Shown here: positions 4,124 to 38,954 of the stretch, piece after piece
Position numbering within the stretch: position 1 is the first letter of the stretch
Layout of the letters: each line of letters opens with the position of its first letter
DNA from: Methanocaldococcus sp. 28A
GTDB lineage: Archaea > AGJL01 > Methanococci > Methanococcales > Methanocaldococcaceae
Assembly: GCA_049852185.1 (NCBI GenBank)
Contig: CP187540.1
DNA length: 64,000 nucleotides
Strand: one strand, 5' to 3'
The notes under the pieces: generated by a model
The model's input: only the letters and a program-made list of their open reading frames with translations
Databases searched by the model: none
What the model was told of the DNA's origin: nothing
Position numbers and translations under genes: made by a program

Positions 4124-5398
4124 TTAACCAGATAATCTTTCAATTTCTTCTGCCAATGATTTCATCCTTTCAGAAATTTCCTTAGCTTCTTTAGCGAATT
4201 TTTGCAATTCTGGTGGAGCTATTCCGATGAATAGGTCTTTCAAGTGTTTAGCAATTATTTCATAGATTTCTCTTGCGTTATTTGATGTAGCCTTCTCTTC
4301 TAACTCAATTGTAATGAAACCATCAGCTAAAGCCGTTTGTCTTGCAGGGTCAGTCAATCTCTTGGCTATGAAGATTTTGATGTGTGGAATTAGATTTAGT
4401 TGTTGAGTTCTTCCAAATTCTTCATCTATTACCCTTCTATCTACTTCTCTTTTCCAATTCTTGCATGAAGCATAAACATAAAATTTTGTGTTTCCTATTC
4501 TTTTCCAAGACCATACATCTACTTCTATAGTTCCTCCACCTCTTGCTGGTAATCTCTTTCCTATTTCAACATAATCAAATCCCATAGATTTTAAAACATT
4601 TGCAACTATTTCCTCTAAAACTTTCCAATCAGGCGTTTTATCGTCAAATTTGAATTTTATTTCATTTACTTCTTTATTTTTTGTTTCTGTAGTAGTTTTT
4701 TTAATGTCTTCATTTTCTTCATTTTTTTCTAATATATCCTCTGGTGGAGATAATTTCTTTATAAATTCATCCTCAAGAAATGGTGCTGGTATTATTTCCT
4801 TAAACCATAAAATTCCTGAATAAATTAACGCATAAATAATATTCTCCATTCTTTTTTCTTGCTCTTTCTTTTCATCTCCTTTTAGACTATAAATATTCTC
4901 TCCCGTTGCAAGTTTGTAAGCGTCAGAAGTAGTGTATAGTGAGTATAATATTGATCCTAAGGAGGTATATCCAGAAGCTTCTAATTTTATACTTTCTAAG
5001 ATTTTCCTTAAATCTTCTTTATCTTCATCTTTGAGTTCGTTAATATATTTTTTCTTAAAATATTTATAGCAAGCTTTTCTAAATTTATCATAATACTCTC
5101 CTTCTATATTCTCTAATTGAGTTTTTACTTTTTTATAATTCTCAAATCTTCTACCTTCAGAAGAGTATTCATTAGAATATAGATTTTCTATAAATATTTC
5201 AGCAGATTTCCAAGCCACATATCCTTCCTTTCCTGATAAAAATCTGGCTAATTCCTTTTTCACAGAATTCATAGTACTTTCTTTACTCCAATCTTCTATT
5301 ACTGCTCTAAATCTCGCATATAACAAAGCTATATAAACTCCAAGAGACTTTGCATCAGTGTCTATCCATTTCTCATTAAACCATTGGGGAATTTCCAT
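4124..5398 (-). CDS. Protein with a C-terminal Mrr-like PD-(D/E)xK restriction endonuclease domain and an unrecognised N-terminal domain
   Basis: LEEIVANVLKSMGF...IEVDVW...YASCKNWKREV pattern in the C-terminal ~170 aa. Confidence 0.7.
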   Translation of the reverse strand: MEIPQWFNEKWIDTDAKSLGVYIALLYARFRAVIEDWSKESTMNSVKKELARFLSGKEGYVAWKSAEIFIENLYSNEYSSEGRRFENYKKVKTQLENIEGEYYDKFRKACYKYFKKKYINELKDEDKEDLRKILESIKLEASGYTSLGSILYSLYTTSDAYKLATGENIYSLKGDEKKEQEKRMENIIYALIYSGILWFKEIIPAPFLEDEFIKKLSPPEDILEKNEENEDIKKTTTETKNKEVNEIKFKFDDKTPDWKVLEEIVANVLKSMGFDYVEIGKRLPARGGGTIEVDVWSWKRIGNTKFYVYASCKNWKREVDRRVIDEEFGRTQQLNLIPHIKIFIAKRLTDPARQTALADGFITIELEEKATSNNAREIYEIIAKHLKDLFIGIAPPELQKFAKEAKEISERMKSLAEEIERLSG

Positions 5399-7734: not shown

Positions 7735-9597
7735 ATGTATGAGTGGAAGTTAAACCAAATAGTTGATAGTGGAATATGTGCAAGATGTGGGACATGTACT
7801 ATAGTATGTCCTAATAGTATATTAACTTTTGATGAGAGACCAAAATTAATAGATGAGTGTTTAAGAAAAGGTCATGGAATGTGTTATGATGTTTGTCCAA
7901 GGGTATCATCAGGAAAATACCAAATAAAAATCAGAGAGAAGTTTAAGGAAGAATATTACTATGGAAAAAGTGACATTGAAGGACAAGATGGAGGGGTTGT
8001 AACAGCATTCCTAAAATACTTATTAGAAAATGGAAAAATTGATGGAGCAATTGTTGTTGGAGATGAGTGCTGGAAACCAGTTTCATTAGTTGTTCAAAAT
8101 GCAGAGGATTTATTAAAAACTGCAAAATCAAAATATGCTATCTCAACTTTAGATGCATTAAGAAAAGCTGGAGAAATGGGACTAAAGAAAGTTGCAGTTG
8201 TTGGGTTACCATGCCAAATTAATGGTTTGAGAAAACTACAATACTTCCCATACTTAGCAAAGCACGATGGAGAACTCGGTAAGAATGGAAAACCAGCTAA
8301 GTTACCAAAAATTGAATATCTCATAGGATTATTCTGTACTGAGAAATTTGAATATAACAACATGAAAGAAGTTTTAGCAAAGCATGGAATAGACATTGAA
8401 AATGTTGAGAAGTTTGATATTAAGAAAGGAAAATTACTTGTTTATATAAATGGAGAGAAAAAAGAAATTGACTTAAAAGAGTTTGAAATCTGCCCAGGAT
8501 GTAAAATTTGTAGAGATTTTGATGCAAGCATGGCTGATGTTTCAGTTGGATGTGTTGGAAGTCCAGATGGTTATTCAACAGTCATAATAAGAACTAAGAA
8601 AGGGGAAGAGATTAAAAATGCTGTTGAATTAAAAGAAGGGGTTAATTTAGAAGAAATTGAGAAATTAAGGCAGCTGAAATTAAAGAGATTTAAGAAAGAA
8701 GTTGAGAGAAGAAAGGAAAATAATGAATTCATTTCATTCTACTGGACAGCTGATTATGGTGGAATCGGAAAGAGAGCTGATGGAACTTACTTCATAAGAA
8801 TTAGAGCAAAGCCTGCTGGATGGTACACTGTTGAAGAAATAAAAGAAATCTTAGATATTGCTGAAAAATACAATGCTAAGATAAAGATAACTGATAGAGG
8901 AGCTTATGAACTCCACGGCATTAGTGGATTTGATGTTGAAGATATAGTATTAAGGTTGAGGGAAAAAGGATTAATAACTGGTTCAGAAGGGCCATTAGTT
9001 AGAGCTACATTGGCATGTCCTGGAGCTGGAAACTGTAGTAGTGGTTTAATAGATACAACAGAACTATGTAAAATCATTGAAGATAACTTCAAAGAAAGAC
9101 CAGCTCCATACAAATTCAAGATTGCAATTAGTGGATGTCCAAACAAGTGTGTAAGACCACAAGTACATGATATTGGTATAGCAGGAGTTAAATTCCCAGA
9201 TGTTGATGAGGAAAAATGTAACGGTTGTGGAAGATGCTTTGAAGTTTGTAAAGTTGAAGCAATTTATATAAGAGGAGAAACTTCCTACACTAACTACAAT
9301 ATCTGTGTTGGATGCGGAAAATGTATAAAAGCATGTCCTAATGAGGCAAGAATCGTTAAAGAAGAAGGATTTATGGTCTATGTTGGTGGTAAAACAGGAA
9401 GAGAAGTTGTTGAAGGAATCAGCATGAAGATGAACAGTGTTGATGAAATACTTAACTTAATAGATAAAGTGTTGGTTGTTTATGACAAATACGCTAAGAA
9501 ACCACAGAGAGAAAGATTAGCTGCAGTTATGAAAAGAGTAGGACAAGAAACGTTCTTAGAGGAGGTTATGGAATTAATGAAAAAAGAATCTGCCTAA
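7735..9597 (+). CDS. fsr: F420-dependent sulfite reductase
   Basis: N-terminal FrhB-like domain (GQDGGVVT, GLPCQ) fused to a siroheme sulfite reductase domain (ACPGAGNC, ISGCPNKC) with ferredoxin motifs; 620 aa. Confidence 0.95.
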   Translation: MYEWKLNQIVDSGICARCGTCTIVCPNSILTFDERPKLIDECLRKGHGMCYDVCPRVSSGKYQIKIREKFKEEYYYGKSDIEGQDGGVVTAFLKYLLENGKIDGAIVVGDECWKPVSLVVQNAEDLLKTAKSKYAISTLDALRKAGEMGLKKVAVVGLPCQINGLRKLQYFPYLAKHDGELGKNGKPAKLPKIEYLIGLFCTEKFEYNNMKEVLAKHGIDIENVEKFDIKKGKLLVYINGEKKEIDLKEFEICPGCKICRDFDASMADVSVGCVGSPDGYSTVIIRTKKGEEIKNAVELKEGVNLEEIEKLRQLKLKRFKKEVERRKENNEFISFYWTADYGGIGKRADGTYFIRIRAKPAGWYTVEEIKEILDIAEKYNAKIKITDRGAYELHGISGFDVEDIVLRLREKGLITGSEGPLVRATLACPGAGNCSSGLIDTTELCKIIEDNFKERPAPYKFKIAISGCPNKCVRPQVHDIGIAGVKFPDVDEEKCNGCGRCFEVCKVEAIYIRGETSYTNYNICVGCGKCIKACPNEARIVKEEGFMVYVGGKTGREVVEGISMKMNSVDEILNLIDKVLVVYDKYAKKPQRERLAAVMKRVGQETFLEEVMELMKKESA

Positions 9598-22432: not shown

Positions 22433-22510
22433 TGGTAGGGCGGCGGGGATTCGAACCCCGGACCACTCGGTTATCAGCCGAGCACTCTAACCAGGCTGAG
22501 CCACCGCCCT
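22433..22510 (-). tRNA. tRNA-Ile(GAT)
   Basis: Cloverleaf with anticodon arm CTCGG-CT-GAT-AA-CCGAG; CCA encoded. Confidence 0.96.
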
Positions 22511-22615: not shown

Positions 22616-23331
22616 TGTGGTATCCTAAAAATATTTCGCATCTATAAATAATAAAAAAGATAACATAAATAATATGGGCGGTGTAAAACTTGAGGATAAA
22701 AAGATTAAGGAAATTATTAGATGGAAGGAGAAGGGATTTAGAACGAGAGATATTGCTAAGAAGTTGGAAATATCCACTCGTAGAGTTCAACAGATATGGA
22801 AAGAATATCGATAGACTGGAGAAATCCCAAATATAAAGCGTAGAGGTTGAAAGCCGAGAGAAATTACTCAGGAAGAGATAGATATTGTCCTTAAAGCAGT
22901 CGAAGAATATAAGGGAACAAGCCCAGTCCATTTGGAGCATTTTATCGAACGTAGGTATAATATACATATTCCACATAATCGTATATATACTATACTGAAA
23001 CAATATGGTAAAATACAACCTAAATAGGAAAAGTTGAACGGATAAATAGAGAGATTGAATATCGACTAAATAGATTTGATAGTTTAGAAGAGTTCGTAGA
23101 TTGAATGAAATCACTAATGTGGTTTCATAGCTCTTCACTACTCTCCGATTGGCATAATAAAATAAAACCACATCGTTCTTTAGATTAGACGAAAACCTAA
23201 GGTTTTCATTGCTCGCTTACTACGTAATCGATTTTAAAACTCCTTATGAAGTTTATTTCGGAAATAATATAGTTAATAATATGGAAGTGATTTCAGGAAT
23301 TATAATTGCGAAATAATTTCAGGATACCACA
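22616..23331 (+). mobile_element. Degenerate IS481-family element with an internally deleted transposase pseudogene
   Basis: TIRs TGTGGTATCCTAAAAATATTTCGCA / TGCGAAATAATTTCAGGATACCACA. Translation MGGVKLEDKKIKEIIRWKEKG...ISTRRVQQIW (with stops), then WHNKIKPHRSL..DFKTPYE. Confidence 0.85.
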
Positions 23332-23395: not shown

Positions 23396-23506
23396 GGGGG
23401 TGTGGTGTAGCCAGGTCTATCATCGGGGACTCCAGTTGCCTATAGGGCACTGGACCACGGCAGGAGAAATCCCTGGACCTGGGTTCAAATCCCAGCACCC
23501 CCACCA
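23396..23506 (+). tRNA. tRNA-Trp(CCA) with a 33-nt intron (23436-23468)
   Basis: GGGGGTG/CACCCCC acceptor stem; CCA anticodon followed by an intron at the canonical 37/38 position. Confidence 0.93.
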
Positions 23507-31232: not shown

Positions 31233-31415
31233 GGTCTGTTCAACATGGACAAATATAGATAAGAGTCCATATTGAACTTGGGCGTCATTAATCTCGCCTC
31301 TCTCTGGGTTCATTGGGAGACATGGGTCTCTGCCCCTGTCGAGAACATAAAAACCTTATGGTTTTTAAGTTCTCGCGCTTCGCTCCGAGAGAACCCCAAC
31401 TCTTCCCACCAATTA
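31233..31415 (-). ncRNA. Putative stand-alone omegaRNA/right end of an IS607-type TnpB element, with no tnpB ORF
   Basis: Shares GGGGTT...CGACAGGGGCAGAG...ATGACGCCCAA and a terminal stem ending in CC with the 3' end of tnpB at 37453-37705. Confidence 0.6.
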
Positions 31416-31507
31416 AAATTAATCGAAAACTGCCCCTTTTAGGACTCTATTTTACTCCAGCATCTGAAGTAGTTATAATCTTTATTTCTTATAATATAGC
31501 ACACATA

Positions 31508-37452: not shown

Positions 37453-38954
37453 GGTTCTCCCAACGTGGTCATATATAGACAAAGATAGACATTTAGGAAA
37501 TTTTAATTAGATATTTTCCGTTATAATTGACTTTATAGACCATCAGAGGGAAATCTGCGATTTGAACAAAATCCGAAGGATTTTGTAGCTCGAACCTTCG
37601 GTTCGATTCCCTTACTGGAAGCTTCGCTTCCACGTTGGGATTGGGCGTCATCAGTTTCCTAATGGAAACCTCTGCCCCTGTCGTGGTAACCCCAGAGCCA
37701 CCCATAATCTCTTTAACTTTTCCTAAACCTCTTTTAAAGATATTAAAGCAACTAACTAACTGTCGATTAAAAGAGTTCTTACAATTAGAGCAAAAAACAA
37801 CCAGTCCTTCTTGGGACTCCATTTTACTCCCGCATATAGGACAAGTTGTCGATGTATAAGCAGGATTAACTAAAATCGTTATCGCTTTATAGCTAATTTT
37901 ATGTATTATGCTATTCCAATTACTCCTATCTAACTTTCGATTAAAATATCTATTTTTATACATCTTTCGTTTATTCAAATCTTCAAAAATAAAAATCGCA
38001 TTTGGGAATAATCGGGATAGTTGAGTAGTTAATTTATGTAAAAAGTCATTAACTCTATTCTTCCTTCTTTCGAACAACCTTTTTATCTTTCTCATAACTC
38101 TTAAAGGACACTTTTTAATTAACTTTTTAAGCAAATCGATTTTTCTATCATAAATCTCTTTAATTCTATGCAGTTCTGATATGTCAATCCTTATCCATCC
38201 CTCTGTTGGATGATATAAATCGAGAGATTTTAAGTTACTATCTACTCCAACGATTATATCTCTATCTGAATAGTTTAGAGCATCTTTAAACGTTAAAAAT
38301 GCTTCATTTTCTTTTAGAATAATTTCTCCTATGGATAAATCCTTAACTTTATCAAAAAACCATTCGTTTTTAATATCTAAAATTAAATATTCTTTTCTTG
38401 GTTTTATGGTTATTCTTATTTCTCCTTTATCTTTATTGTATTTTATTAATGTTGTTTTAACTCTAACAAATAATCTTTTAACTATCGGTTTTGTTTTTGT
38501 CCTATAACCCTTTTTATAATTCGAAGCCCAACTACCTAAGATAGAATAGGCAGTTTTAATAACTCCATCTATATAATGAGAGGCATAATTCCAATTTTCC
38601 AATAGTTTGTTCCTTAAATTTCTTTTAAATTCATTAGATTTCGGTAGTTTTGGTTTGTCTTTTTTAGTCCATTCGATATTATTCCAAATTATGTCTATGC
38701 ATTCGTTTAGTTTATTTCTACATTCGGTTAAAAAGGTATTAAGTGGATAGTTATGGCTAACTTTATATGATAAGACGATTTGATAATCTAATTCTTGGTC
38801 GTTTTTTAATTTTATTTCGTTTGGCATAGTAATCGTTTAATTGTTTTTAGATTGTTATGGTTTTATATATTTTAACTCATATTTAAAGATTATCCGGAAT
38901 ATTTGTCTATAAATGTCTATCTTTGTCTATAGATAATTAAACAGTTTCAAACGG
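37453..38954 (-). mobile_element. Non-autonomous IS607-type element carrying tnpB only
   Basis: Bounded by GG at both junctions (37453-54, 38953-54) with no other duplication; subterminal TAAATGTCTATCTTTGTCTATA motif in inverted orientation at both ends. Confidence 0.75.
37493..38827 (-). CDS. tnpB: TnpB-family RNA-guided nuclease-like protein
   Basis: VGVDSN (RuvC-I), IFEDL (RuvC-II), VNPAYTSTTCPICG..CSNC zinc finger, FNRQ at RuvC-III. Confidence 0.93.
   Translation of the reverse strand: MPNEIKLKNDQELDYQIVLSYKVSHNYPLNTFLTECRNKLNECIDIIWNNIEWTKKDKPKLPKSNEFKRNLRNKLLENWNYASHYIDGVIKTAYSILGSWASNYKKGYRTKTKPIVKRLFVRVKTTLIKYNKDKGEIRITIKPRKEYLILDIKNEWFFDKVKDLSIGEIILKENEAFLTFKDALNYSDRDIIVGVDSNLKSLDLYHPTEGWIRIDISELHRIKEIYDRKIDLLKKLIKKCPLRVMRKIKRLFERRKNRVNDFLHKLTTQLSRLFPNAIFIFEDLNKRKMYKNRYFNRKLDRSNWNSIIHKISYKAITILVNPAYTSTTCPICGSKMESQEGLVVFCSNCKNSFNRQLVSCFNIFKRGLGKVKEIMGGSGVTTTGAEVSIRKLMTPNPNVEAKLPVRESNRRFELQNPSDFVQIADFPLMVYKVNYNGKYLIKIS

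What the first reader, a model, noticed from the sequence alone, without database searches (positions are those of the whole stretch)
23099..23233. Family of 46-48-bp hairpin micro-insertions found inside other mobile elements
Seen: removing 23099-23146 and 23183-23229 restores the IS481 transposase reading EEFVD|WHNKIKPHRSL|DFKTPYE. Each insert is flanked by a short duplication (GATTG, GATT). Both share the layout GATT-N3-hairpin-(A/T)GCTC-second segment-C-GATT. The same layout occurs at 37558-37608 inside the tnpB 3' end (CGATT duplication, 46-bp spacing, ACAAAATCC-GAA-GGATTTTGT-AGCTC-GAACCTTCGGTTC). A looser version is at 31340-31390 (CGAGA duplication, 46 bp). Length and structure are conserved while the stem sequences differ. 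All four lie in IS DNA, and I saw none in host genes. Inference: an ultra-small, structure-defined mobile element, possibly moved by an HUH/REP-type enzyme, that either targets IS DNA or survives only there. I do not recognise it as a described family.
Basis: partly seen in the sequence, partly recalled or inferred. Interest (0 to 1): 0.8.

Follow-up and report, generated by a model that had tools for sequence, protein, structure and literature searches.

The report
Tiny two-hairpin mobile repeat family
The four 46-48-base inserts are real copies of a very small, two-hairpin repeat that is scattered through many Methanococcales genomes, sits inside transposons and also in frame inside ordinary genes, and is most likely the palindromic "MJRE" type of repeat already described in a related methanogen.

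Summary
All four inserts exist, fold as stated, and are related in sequence. Empty alleles exist for three of them: an intact 385-aa transposase in a relative reads ...EFVEWHNQIKPHRSLSFKTPYE... with neither insert.

The family is much larger than four copies. There are 40 copies of 8 insertion types in this genome. Copies occur in 21 of 40 genomes of the phylum set, up to 72 per genome, with strong stem covariation.

Insertion is precise, 45-49 nt, and leaves no target duplication. The "GATT/CGAGA duplications" are not transposition footprints. An identical 47-mer at three different sites in three relatives suggests recent mobility.

The "IS-only" idea fails. In relatives, 14 of 49 copies lie in long open frames, and 6 of 10 tested are clean 15-16-codon in-frame insertions in host genes. 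One type here sits in an archaeal ATPase paralogue. In this genome most copies are passengers of IS families.

The HUH idea is not supported. Y1 transposase genes are missing from the genomes richest in copies, and the local IS200/IS605 uses a different hairpin and a TTAC target.

The family is probably the MJRE palindromic repeats of Suyama et al. 2005. That paper was not available, so sequence identity is unverified. Verdict: real, modestly interesting, probably already known in kind.

The parts
23100..23147 (+). Insert T1: 48-nt two-hairpin unit (ATT...CCG convention) inside the C-terminal remnant of the rve transposase. It is present in all 13 copies of this MITE family in the genome.
   Evidence: (47.1 bits, E 1e-8). 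Empty allele in L231.
23184..23230 (+). Insert T2: 47-nt unit, 36 nt downstream of T1. It is present in 5 MITE copies and absent from 7 of the 13 aligned copies.
   Evidence: (42.8 bits). Also empty in L231. It is a variant of the 47-mer found in G028, G023 and G002.
22616..23331 (+). About 716-bp decayed, internally deleted derivative (MITE-like) of an rve-type (IS481-like) insertion sequence, with terminal inverted repeats. It carries T1 and T2.
   Evidence: copies at 73-94% identity; alignment; full-length relative, Pfam rve + HTH.
37560..37605 (+). Insert T3: 46-nt unit in the 3' tail of tnpB, antisense to the gene; the ORF reads through it. No empty allele was found.
   Evidence: (60.2 bits, E 1e-11). 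The same insert is in tnpB copies of G010, G034 and G016.
37474..38931 (-). tnpB-only insertion sequence with 22-bp inverted-repeat ends. The ORF is 37493-38827 (444 aa). It carries T3 and is an EMPTY allele for T4, at about 37677|37678 (gtcgtgg|taacccc).
   Evidence: (Pfam OrfB_IS605 + Cas12f1-like TNB).
31345..31390 (+). Insert T4: 46 nt here, 47 nt in the other copies. It lies in a solo 3'-end fragment of a tnpB element (about 31255-31440).
   Evidence: (37.6 bits, E 1.5e-6).

Best explanation
WHAT IT IS
The four inserts are copies of a 45-49-nt repeat unit with this consensus:
ATT-AAAC-GAAAACC-TTC-GGTTTTC-GT-AGCTC-TnCGC-TTC-GCTnCGA-TT
It has an A/T-rich hairpin of 7-10 bp, a WGCTC linker, and a second, G+C-richer hairpin or half-hairpin with a TTC/TAC loop.

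The unit belongs to a diverged family spread through Methanococcales. It is most probably the MJRE-type palindromic repeats already described in a related species.

HOW IT MOVES
The unit is, or recently was, mobile as a whole. It enters DNA precisely, with no target-site duplication, almost always immediately 5' of an A. It can be absent just as precisely.

It encodes nothing, so it must be moved in trans. My committed guess is an enzyme that recognises folded (hairpin) DNA rather than terminal inverted repeats. That means a single-strand or site-specific type of reaction, not a DDE cut-and-paste. The enzyme is not identified.

WHY IT IS IN IS DNA HERE
In this genome the copies are mostly passengers. 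They were inserted into IS elements long ago and are now copied and carried between genomes by those elements. That explains why 7 of 8 insertion types lie in IS-derived DNA.

SHOWN VERSUS INFERRED
- Shown: family membership, structure conservation, precise filled/empty alleles, lack of duplication, presence in host genes.
- Inferred: the hairpin-DNA mechanism, the trans-acting enzyme, and identity with MJRE.
For: FAMILY
- Model R1, built only from this genome's copies, finds matches in 18 of 41 related genomes.
- Model R2 finds 40 full-length copies of 8 insertion types here.
- R2 also finds copies in 21 of 40 genomes of the phylum set, up to 72 per genome. At most 150 candidates per genome were scored.

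STRUCTURE
- 93.5% of cells are paired, against 77.5% in shuffles.
- 139 cells change on both sides, and 0 of 500 shuffles reach the observed score.
- Slid controls give 30-53% paired.

PRECISE FILLED/EMPTY PAIRS
- T2: 4 filled, 7 empty and 2 deleted among the 13 aligned MITE copies, plus one more filled fragment.
- T1 and T2 against the intact ORF in L231.
- T4: empty in window copy A and in G034, filled elsewhere.
- T5: filled in 2 ATPase paralogues and empty in 2.
- T8 and T6 against the IS200/IS605 ends of this genome.
- Host genes: 6 of the 10 genes tested show clean 15-16-codon gaps, with nucleotide junctions.

RECENT MOBILITY
- The identical 47-mer is inserted at two sites of one IS copy in G028, with otherwise near-identical flanks.
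- The same 47-mer is at the first of those sites in G002 and in a tnpB gene in G023.

NO DUPLICATION
- Junctions are AGA|AAAA, TCA|ACAA, AAC|AAAT, AAC|AACA, ATA|AAGT and GTGG|TAAC.

PASSENGER STATUS
- T3, T4, T6 and T8 occupy the same positions of the same IS families in other genera.

LINK TO MJRE
- The paper is cited as describing palindromic repeats with coding potential fused into protein genes.
- A same-genus genome (G010) has 23 copies, exactly 3 of them inside ordinary long ORFs. The abstract, as I recall it, reports three in-frame MJRE2 copies.
Against: - The MJRE paper is not held, so no sequence comparison was possible. I recall 141 MJREs of about 100 bp on average. That is more and longer than the 23 copies of about 50 nt that R2 finds in G010. 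The unit may therefore be only one MJRE group, or a module of larger composites.
- No enzyme was found. Y1_Tnp is absent from the copy-richest genomes.
- Insert boundaries are not fully uniform (ATT...CCG, TT...CGG, T...CCGA, ACAT...CCGAGA), so the cut sites are not pinned down.
- Most types have no second copy outside their carrier in this genome, so donor copies are not seen here.
- T3 has no empty allele among the copies examined.
- The 17/4/2/17 association with TnpB genes is partly built in, because many copies lie inside tnpB elements, and related genomes are not independent.
Confidence: 0.75

Rival explanations
1. One reading: the unit is a minimal REP/PATE-like element moved as single-stranded DNA by a Y1 HUH transposase (IS200/IS605 TnpA or a RAYT).
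For: - There is no target duplication, insertion and absence are precise, and the hairpins are subterminal.
- On the complementary strand both loops are usually GAA or GTA closed by C-G. I recall this as a very stable DNA mini-hairpin type.
- Loops are inverted between copies (TTAC/GTAA, GAA/TTC), as expected if the DNA hairpins extrude.
- All 6 in-order genomes with a Y1_Tnp match also carry the element.
- Element and TnpB-type IS co-occur: both 17, element only 4, TnpB only 2, neither 17 of 40.
Against: - Y1_Tnp was found in only 7 of 41 genomes and in none of G032 (72 copies), G028 (58, with identical copies at two sites) or G023 (54).
- The Y1 gene of this genome has no element within 1.5 kb (best E 6.6).
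- Its IS uses a G+C-rich hairpin, CCGCCC-TTTA-GGGCGG, and sits 3' of TTAC. Neither resembles the unit.
- The flank next to the unit is only a single conserved A, not a tetra- or pentanucleotide target.
Confidence: 0.25
2. The unit is an ordinary MITE moved by a DDE transposase, with the GATT/CGAGA repeats as target-site duplications.
For: Three of the four window copies are flanked by a 4-5-nt direct repeat. They also sit in a genome rich in DDE and other IS elements.
Against: - The unit has no terminal inverted repeats.
- Cleanly resolved junctions show 0-1 nt of repeat.
- CGAGA is private to one copy of T4.
- Where ATT is absent from the empty site, it arrives with the insert (L034, L057, L084).
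Confidence: 0.04
3. The inserts are RNA-level elements: bulge-helix-bulge introns removed by the archaeal splicing endonuclease, or a structured small RNA gene, so that host reading frames are restored in the RNA.
For: Lengths of 46 and 47 nt would break reading frames. The structure is conserved with covariation. An intron-containing tRNA gene lies 165 nt downstream of the MITE.
Against: - The two hairpins fold independently and the unit's ends do not pair with each other or with the flanks. No bulge-helix-bulge can be drawn (folds).
- Copies inside intact host genes are exactly 45 or 48 nt and are read through in frame, in both orientations. This is what DNA inserts under selection look like, not introns.
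- There is no Rfam match at gathering score.
Confidence: 0.03
4. Not a family: unrelated local hairpins or quasi-palindromic duplications that resemble each other by chance in A+T-rich DNA.
For: The loose motif 'hairpin + WGCTC' is no more frequent than in Markov-shuffled genomes: 56 against 61-85.
Against: - Full-length model matches reach E 1e-13 in other genera.
- The linker and second half are conserved in sequence.
- Identical 47-mers lie at different sites.
Confidence: 0.01

Closest known systems
MJRE1-3 palindromic repetitive elements of Methanocaldococcus jannaschii (Suyama, Lathe & Bork, FEBS Lett 2005; seen only as a citation in PMC2229807 and PMC2996958, abstract recalled)
   Same: Same group of organisms. 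Short palindromic, hairpin-forming repeats. Low identity between copies. Mostly non-coding, but some copies are inserted in frame in protein genes without breaking them.
   Different: Not comparable at sequence level because the paper is not held. The recalled mean length of about 100 bp and count of 141 exceed the roughly 47-nt unit and the 23 matches in G010. The unit may be one MJRE group or a module of larger composites. I do not recall nesting in IS ends, the junction anatomy or the order-wide spread from that work.
REP / REPIN elements with RAYT transposases of Bacteria (PMC2817692, PMC3116915, PMC3733652: abstracts and passages seen)
   Same: Tiny non-coding palindromic repeats maintained for structure. 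No target duplication. Often arranged in pairs or arrays; pairs and arrays are also seen here in relatives.
   Different: - There is no GTAG/CGTC tag; the 5' end here is RTT-RRRY.
- The unit is not restricted to extragenic DNA.
- No single-copy Y1 gene is flanked by the repeats.
- Co-occurrence with Y1 genes is poor.
- In the two REP papers whose text I searched for 'archaea' (PMC3733652 and PMC2817692), no archaeal REP family is described.
Rickettsia palindromic elements (RPE) and similar 'selfish' coding palindromes (mentioned in PMC2996958, passage seen)
   Same: Palindromic repeats that insert in frame into housekeeping genes in either orientation and add a short peptide. Here the peptide is 15-16 residues.
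   Different: RPEs are bacterial and, as I recall, roughly 100-150 bp. There is no sequence relation.
IS200/IS605-derived miniature elements (PATE-type)
   Same: Hairpin ends and no duplication. They live in genomes with tnpB elements.
   Different: The unit's hairpins and flank do not match the LE/RE hairpin or the TTAC target of the IS200/IS605 present here. At about 47 nt it is far smaller than such derivatives.
Small dispersed repeats (SDR) of cyanobacteria (Elhai et al. 2008; recalled only, my search for it failed on a format error)
   Same: As I recall: very small (21-27 nt) repeats found nested inside other mobile elements, with hairpin potential and no duplication.
   Different: Different domain of life, size and sequence.

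Membership tests
MJRE palindromic repeats (Suyama et al. 2005) | Dispersed palindromic (hairpin-forming) repeats in Methanocaldococcus genomes | tested here: met
   40 copies here. Copies in 13 of 16 same-genus genomes. Folds.
MJRE palindromic repeats (Suyama et al. 2005) | Low identity among copies (old family) | tested here: met
   Mean column identity is 59-67%, with compensatory stem changes.
MJRE palindromic repeats (Suyama et al. 2005) | Some copies lie inside protein-coding genes without disrupting the frame | tested here: met
   G010 has exactly 3 such copies in ordinary genes. The published number (three) is recalled, and I did not establish that G010 is the published species.
MJRE palindromic repeats (Suyama et al. 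2005) | Sequence match to the published MJRE1, 2 or 3 consensus | not testable with these tools
   The paper is not held, and no other held paper gives the sequences.
REP/REPIN-RAYT | Conserved GTAG or CGTC tag at one end of the palindrome | tested here: not met
   The 5' end consensus is ATT-RRAY.
REP/REPIN-RAYT | A Y1 (RAYT) gene flanked by the repeats and co-inherited with them | tested here: not met
   no element next to the Y1 gene of this genome or of G001. Y1_Tnp in 7 of 41 genomes, and in none of G023, G028 or G032.
IS200/IS605-derived miniature element | Ends and hairpins like those of a resident IS200/IS605, with the same target | tested here: not met
   the IS hairpin is CCGCCC-TTTA-GGGCGG with a left flank TTAC. 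The unit instead has an A/T-rich hairpin and a single A at the junction.
DDE-type MITE | Terminal inverted repeats plus a fixed-length target-site duplication | tested here: not met
   (no TIR). (0-1 nt repeat at junctions).
Archaeal bulge-helix-bulge intron | Exon-intron junctions lie in two 3-nt bulges separated by a 4-bp helix | tested here: not met
   In the MFE folds the unit forms two independent hairpins and its ends are unpaired. This was judged by eye; no dedicated BHB scan was run.

The most novel reading that the evidence does not exclude
This is a currently active, roughly 47-nt mobile DNA, the smallest known in Archaea. It is moved in trans by an enzyme that is not the IS200-type Y1 transposase, inserts without duplication next to an A, and can leave precisely. 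It colonises transposon ends, the guide-RNA-encoding 3' tails of tnpB genes and, in frame, host proteins. Identifying the enzyme would reveal a new hairpin-DNA transposition or recombination activity in hyperthermophilic archaea.
Probability: 0.2. Interest if true: 0.7.

Novelty: new member of a known kind. Interest (0 to 1): 0.4.

Why it matters
If it is simply MJRE-type DNA, the value is descriptive. It explains frame-breaking 46-48-nt blocks that confuse annotation of IS elements, tnpB 3' ends and paralogous ATPase genes in Methanococcales. The covariance model built here could be used to mask them.

The junction data add something that may go beyond the 2005 description, which I could not read:
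- Insertion is precise and leaves no duplication, next to an A.
- An identical 47-mer sits at three sites in three genera.
- Loops are inverted between copies.
- There are precise empty alleles.
- Co-occurrence with Y1 transposases is poor.

Together these say that a trans-acting activity on hairpin DNA remains to be found. That activity would be the interesting part.

Tried and rejected
- Loose motif scan (hairpin + WGCTC, optional flanking repeat): no enrichment, 56 hits against 61-85 in Markov controls. Dropped in favour of covariance models.
- Chaining BLAST HSPs to find 38-58-nt indels gave almost nothing. A BLAST run with unsupported gap costs failed and a whole-genome run with wide X-drop timed out. 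Restricting the search to repeated regions worked.
- RNA evidence: no RNA holder was listed for the tnpB stretch, so splicing or expression could not be examined and read laying was not used.
In 79 of the 80 loci listed and searched (the scan reports 124 matching stretches), only the 19-mer itself matched the model, which points to chance or unrelated repeats. The one true match (L099) is the same locus as L073. The spread is therefore given by handles only, and nothing outside this phylum set was tested except G040 (no match).
- Literature: the MJRE paper and Filee et al. 2007 are not held. Searches found no other description of this unit. The search for the cyanobacterial SDR paper failed on term length and was not repeated.
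- Target-site duplication, serine-recombinase-type shared dinucleotide, and bulge-helix-bulge readings were each checked against the junctions and folds and rejected.
- An integron attC-like reading was considered because the 5' RTT-RRRY resembles, from memory, the GTTRRRY core site. I left it as an untested idea.
- Strand bias relative to genome position in G032 was inspected by eye from the list. No pattern was seen, so it was not pursued.
- Earlier notes of this scan: none for this genome.

Full report
1. WHAT IS AT THE LOCUS

Window 22616-23331 is a decayed, internally deleted copy of an rve-type (IS481-like) insertion sequence with inverted-repeat ends. The genome holds at least 13 such copies at 73-94% identity.

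A relative (G028, locus L231) carries an intact 385-aa ORF of the same IS, with Pfam rve plus HTH domains. Its C-terminus reads KEFVEWHNQIKPHRSLSFKTPYEVYF. The nucleotide alignment shows both window blocks as clean gaps. Both inserts are therefore true insertions.

- T1 (23100-23147) is in all 13 copies of the family in this genome.
- T2 (23184-23230) is in 5 copies and absent from 7 of the 13 aligned copies.
- The other two cases lie in tnpB elements. T3 (37560-37605) is in the 3' tail of a 444-aa tnpB ORF that reads through it.
- T4 (31345-31390) is in a solo 3' fragment of a related element.

2. ARE THE FOUR INSERTS ONE FAMILY?

Yes. They align with 67% mean column identity (22 copies), so they share sequence as well as layout. 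All four fold as predicted (z -2.8 to -5.5).

An unbiased list of 30-70-nt indels between repeated regions of the genome brought up T2 and T4 again. It also revealed a fifth type, T5.

- Model R1, built from this genome's copies alone, found three more types here (T6-T8).
- R1 also found matches in 18 of 41 related genomes.
- Model R2, built from 48 diverse copies, finds 40 full-length copies here: T1 x13, T2 x5, T3 x4, T4 x10, T5 x2, T6 x1, T7 x1, T8 x4.
- R2 finds copies in 21 of 40 genomes of the phylum set: genus g1 13/16, g2 4/13, g3 2/2, g5 1/1, g4 0/7. The maximum is 72 in one genome. At most 150 candidates per genome were scored, so these counts are lower bounds.

The first stem covaries strongly. 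It is 99.1% paired, 6 of 8 pairs change on both sides, and 139 cells change on both sides against 41 in shuffles, with 0 of 500 shuffles as high. Slid controls give 30-53% paired. That alignment was fitted to the model, which favours pairing.

The consensus is ATT-AAAC-GAAAACC-TTC-GGTTTTC-GT-AGCTC-TnCGC-TTC-GCTnCGA-TT.

A loose 'hairpin + WGCTC' motif is not enriched. The family is defined by the whole unit.

3. HOW IT SITS IN DNA

The clearest case is in G028. One IS copy (L225) differs from the intact copy (L231) by two insertions of the identical 47-mer, at ...AAAGA|AAAAG... and ...GTTCA|ACAAC.... The flanks are otherwise near-identical, and only a 1-nt (A) ambiguity exists at each junction. 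The same 47-mer is at the first of these sites in G002 and inside a tnpB gene in G023.

Further pairs:
- T4: gtcgtgg|taacccc is empty in window copy A and in G034, and filled by exactly 47 nt elsewhere.
- T5: tatttta|atggagg is empty in two ATPase paralogues and filled by 48 nt in two others.
- T8: gatgaatt|aggggagg in the left end of this genome's IS200/IS605 is empty here and filled in G019 and in four derived copies here.
- T6 lies in the right end of the same IS family.
- Host-gene cases are described in section 4.

No junction that could be resolved cleanly shows a duplication longer than one base. The base after the unit is A in nearly all cases; T4 is the exception.

The unit usually starts with ATT, and where the empty site lacks ATT it arrives with the insert. 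The unit is also often followed by ATT. CGAGA is private to one T4 copy; the other nine have TGG.

Boundaries are not perfectly uniform (ATT...CCG, TT...CGG, T...CCGA, ACAT...CCGAGA), so the exact cut positions remain open.

Between copies of one insert the loop is sometimes inverted (TTAC/GTAA in T4, GAA/TTC in T3). This is what strand switching within an extruded DNA hairpin produces (inference).

4. NOT CONFINED TO IS DNA

In relatives, 14 of 49 copies examined have a stop-free frame of at least 330 nt running through them. Short loci cap this at about 444 nt.

Ten such host ORFs were compared with this genome by tblastn:
- Six showed a homologous gene lacking exactly 15 or 16 codons.
- Two aligned untidily.
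- Two gave no usable alignment.

Hosts include archaeal ATPase_2/MJ1010-like proteins, an ATPase_2 + DUF234 protein and an ATP-grasp protein. The in-gene copies are 45 or 48 nt, occur in both orientations, and add peptides such as EAKLRATKTEGFRLI.

In this genome, T5 is such an in-frame insert in two ATPase paralogues, and a same-genus genome shares it.

Even so, 7 of the 8 types here are in IS-derived DNA, while all repeated DNA is only about 12% of the genome. The simplest reading is hitch-hiking. T3, T4, T6 and T8 occupy the same positions of the same IS families in other genera. They were acquired by the IS long ago and are multiplied and transferred with it. T7 lies in a remnant of the rve IS, at or next to the site filled in G028 and G002 (compared by eye). 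Only T2 looks specific to this lineage.

5. MECHANISM

- A DDE-type MITE is excluded: no TIRs and no duplication.
- A bulge-helix-bulge intron is very unlikely. The hairpins are independent, the unit's ends are unpaired, and in-gene copies are multiples of three read in frame.
- The HUH reading fits the anatomy: hairpins, no duplication, precise absence. It lacks an enzyme, however.
  - Pfam Y1_Tnp is found in 7 of 41 genomes and in none of G032, G028 or G023.
  - The one Y1 gene here belongs to an IS200/IS605 (tnpA + tnpB) with a G+C-rich hairpin and a TTAC left flank. It has no unit within 1.5 kb.
- Element and TnpB genes co-occur: both 17, element only 4, TnpB only 2, neither 17 of 40. Part of this is built in, because units lie inside tnpB elements, and related genomes are not independent.

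I therefore commit to trans-mobilisation by an unidentified activity on folded DNA. My odds are about 25% for Y1 HUH. Most of the remainder goes to another single-strand or site-specific enzyme or to a now-extinct activity, with a few per cent for the other rivals.

6. WHAT IS KNOWN

[quoted passage not shown] They describe it as reporting repeats with open frames fused into protein genes (passages seen). The paper itself is not held.

From memory of its abstract: 141 elements, 14.3 kb in total, three groups, low identity within groups, and three MJRE2 copies in frame in genes.

What I see matches in kind. A same-genus genome (G010) has 23 copies, exactly three of them inside ordinary long ORFs. 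About ten are modules of a larger composite repeat. I did not establish that G010 is the published species.

Two earlier notes of this scan, on other genomes, also filed similar Methanocaldococcus hairpin repeats as MJRE-type. Those are unchecked AI notes and are not independent evidence. One reports 20-90-bp duplications of neighbouring gene ends around its copies. I did not see that at the junctions resolved here, and I did not test for it.

I put the chance that this unit is part of the MJRE set at about 65-70%.

7. VERDICT

The kind of element is most probably already described.

What may be new:
- the junction anatomy;
- the evidence for recent movement;
- the nesting in IS ends and tnpB tails;
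- the order-wide spread;
- the mismatch with Y1 transposases.

Interest 0.4.

Noticed in passing
window 23396-23503 (+): A tRNA gene of 108 nt found by Rfam (43.6 bits) but missed by ARAGORN. It presumably contains an intron. It lies 65 nt downstream of the MITE end, and another tRNA (Ile, 22433-22510, minus strand) lies just upstream. The MITE therefore sits between two tRNA genes.
   Followed up: no
window 37474-37495 and 38910-38931: The tnpB-only insertion sequence ends in 22-bp inverted repeats (TATAGACAAAGATAGACATTTA and its complement). That is unusual for the IS200/IS605 family as I know it. About 50-nt left ends paired with T4-bearing right ends form short non-autonomous derivatives elsewhere in the genome.
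   Followed up: partly
window 37493-38827 (-), C-terminal part of the TnpB ORF: Where I would expect the last RuvC motif (D..NAA.NI, recalled), this TnpB reads NRQLVSCFNIF. The catalytic Asp may be missing. This was not aligned or tested.
   Followed up: no
G000 contig C2 (10,393 bases): A 66-nt match to the tnpB element recurs at 750-815, 4646-4711 and 8542-8607, exactly 3,896 bases apart. C2 looks like about 2.7 tandem copies of a 3.9-kb unit, possibly a small circular replicon assembled as a concatemer.
   Followed up: no
G000 C1:200418 vs window 37563; C1:1226661 vs C1:200542: Between otherwise near-identical copies, the hairpin loop is replaced by its reverse complement (GAA/TTC, TTAC/GTAA). 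These are multi-base changes best explained by strand switching in an extruded hairpin.
   Followed up: partly
G000 C1:437055, 606728, 620677, 993896, 1244280, 1435444: Another repeat family differs between copies by a 30-nt palindromic block (AAAAGGTATATTATACCTTTT...) and by a 44-nt block. These are unrelated in sequence to the unit studied here.
   Followed up: no
L036 (G015), L047 (G032), L042 (G023), L035 (G024): In relatives the unit often occurs in tandem, in inverted pairs about 150 nt apart, or in arrays with other small hairpins. This recalls REPIN/BIME-like composites.
   Followed up: partly
L099 (contig titled as a Bacteroidales MAG): This 14.7-kb contig carries a stretch that, compared by eye, is the same as the G032 locus L073, unit included. 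It is probably an archaeal contig binned into a bacterial MAG.
   Followed up: no
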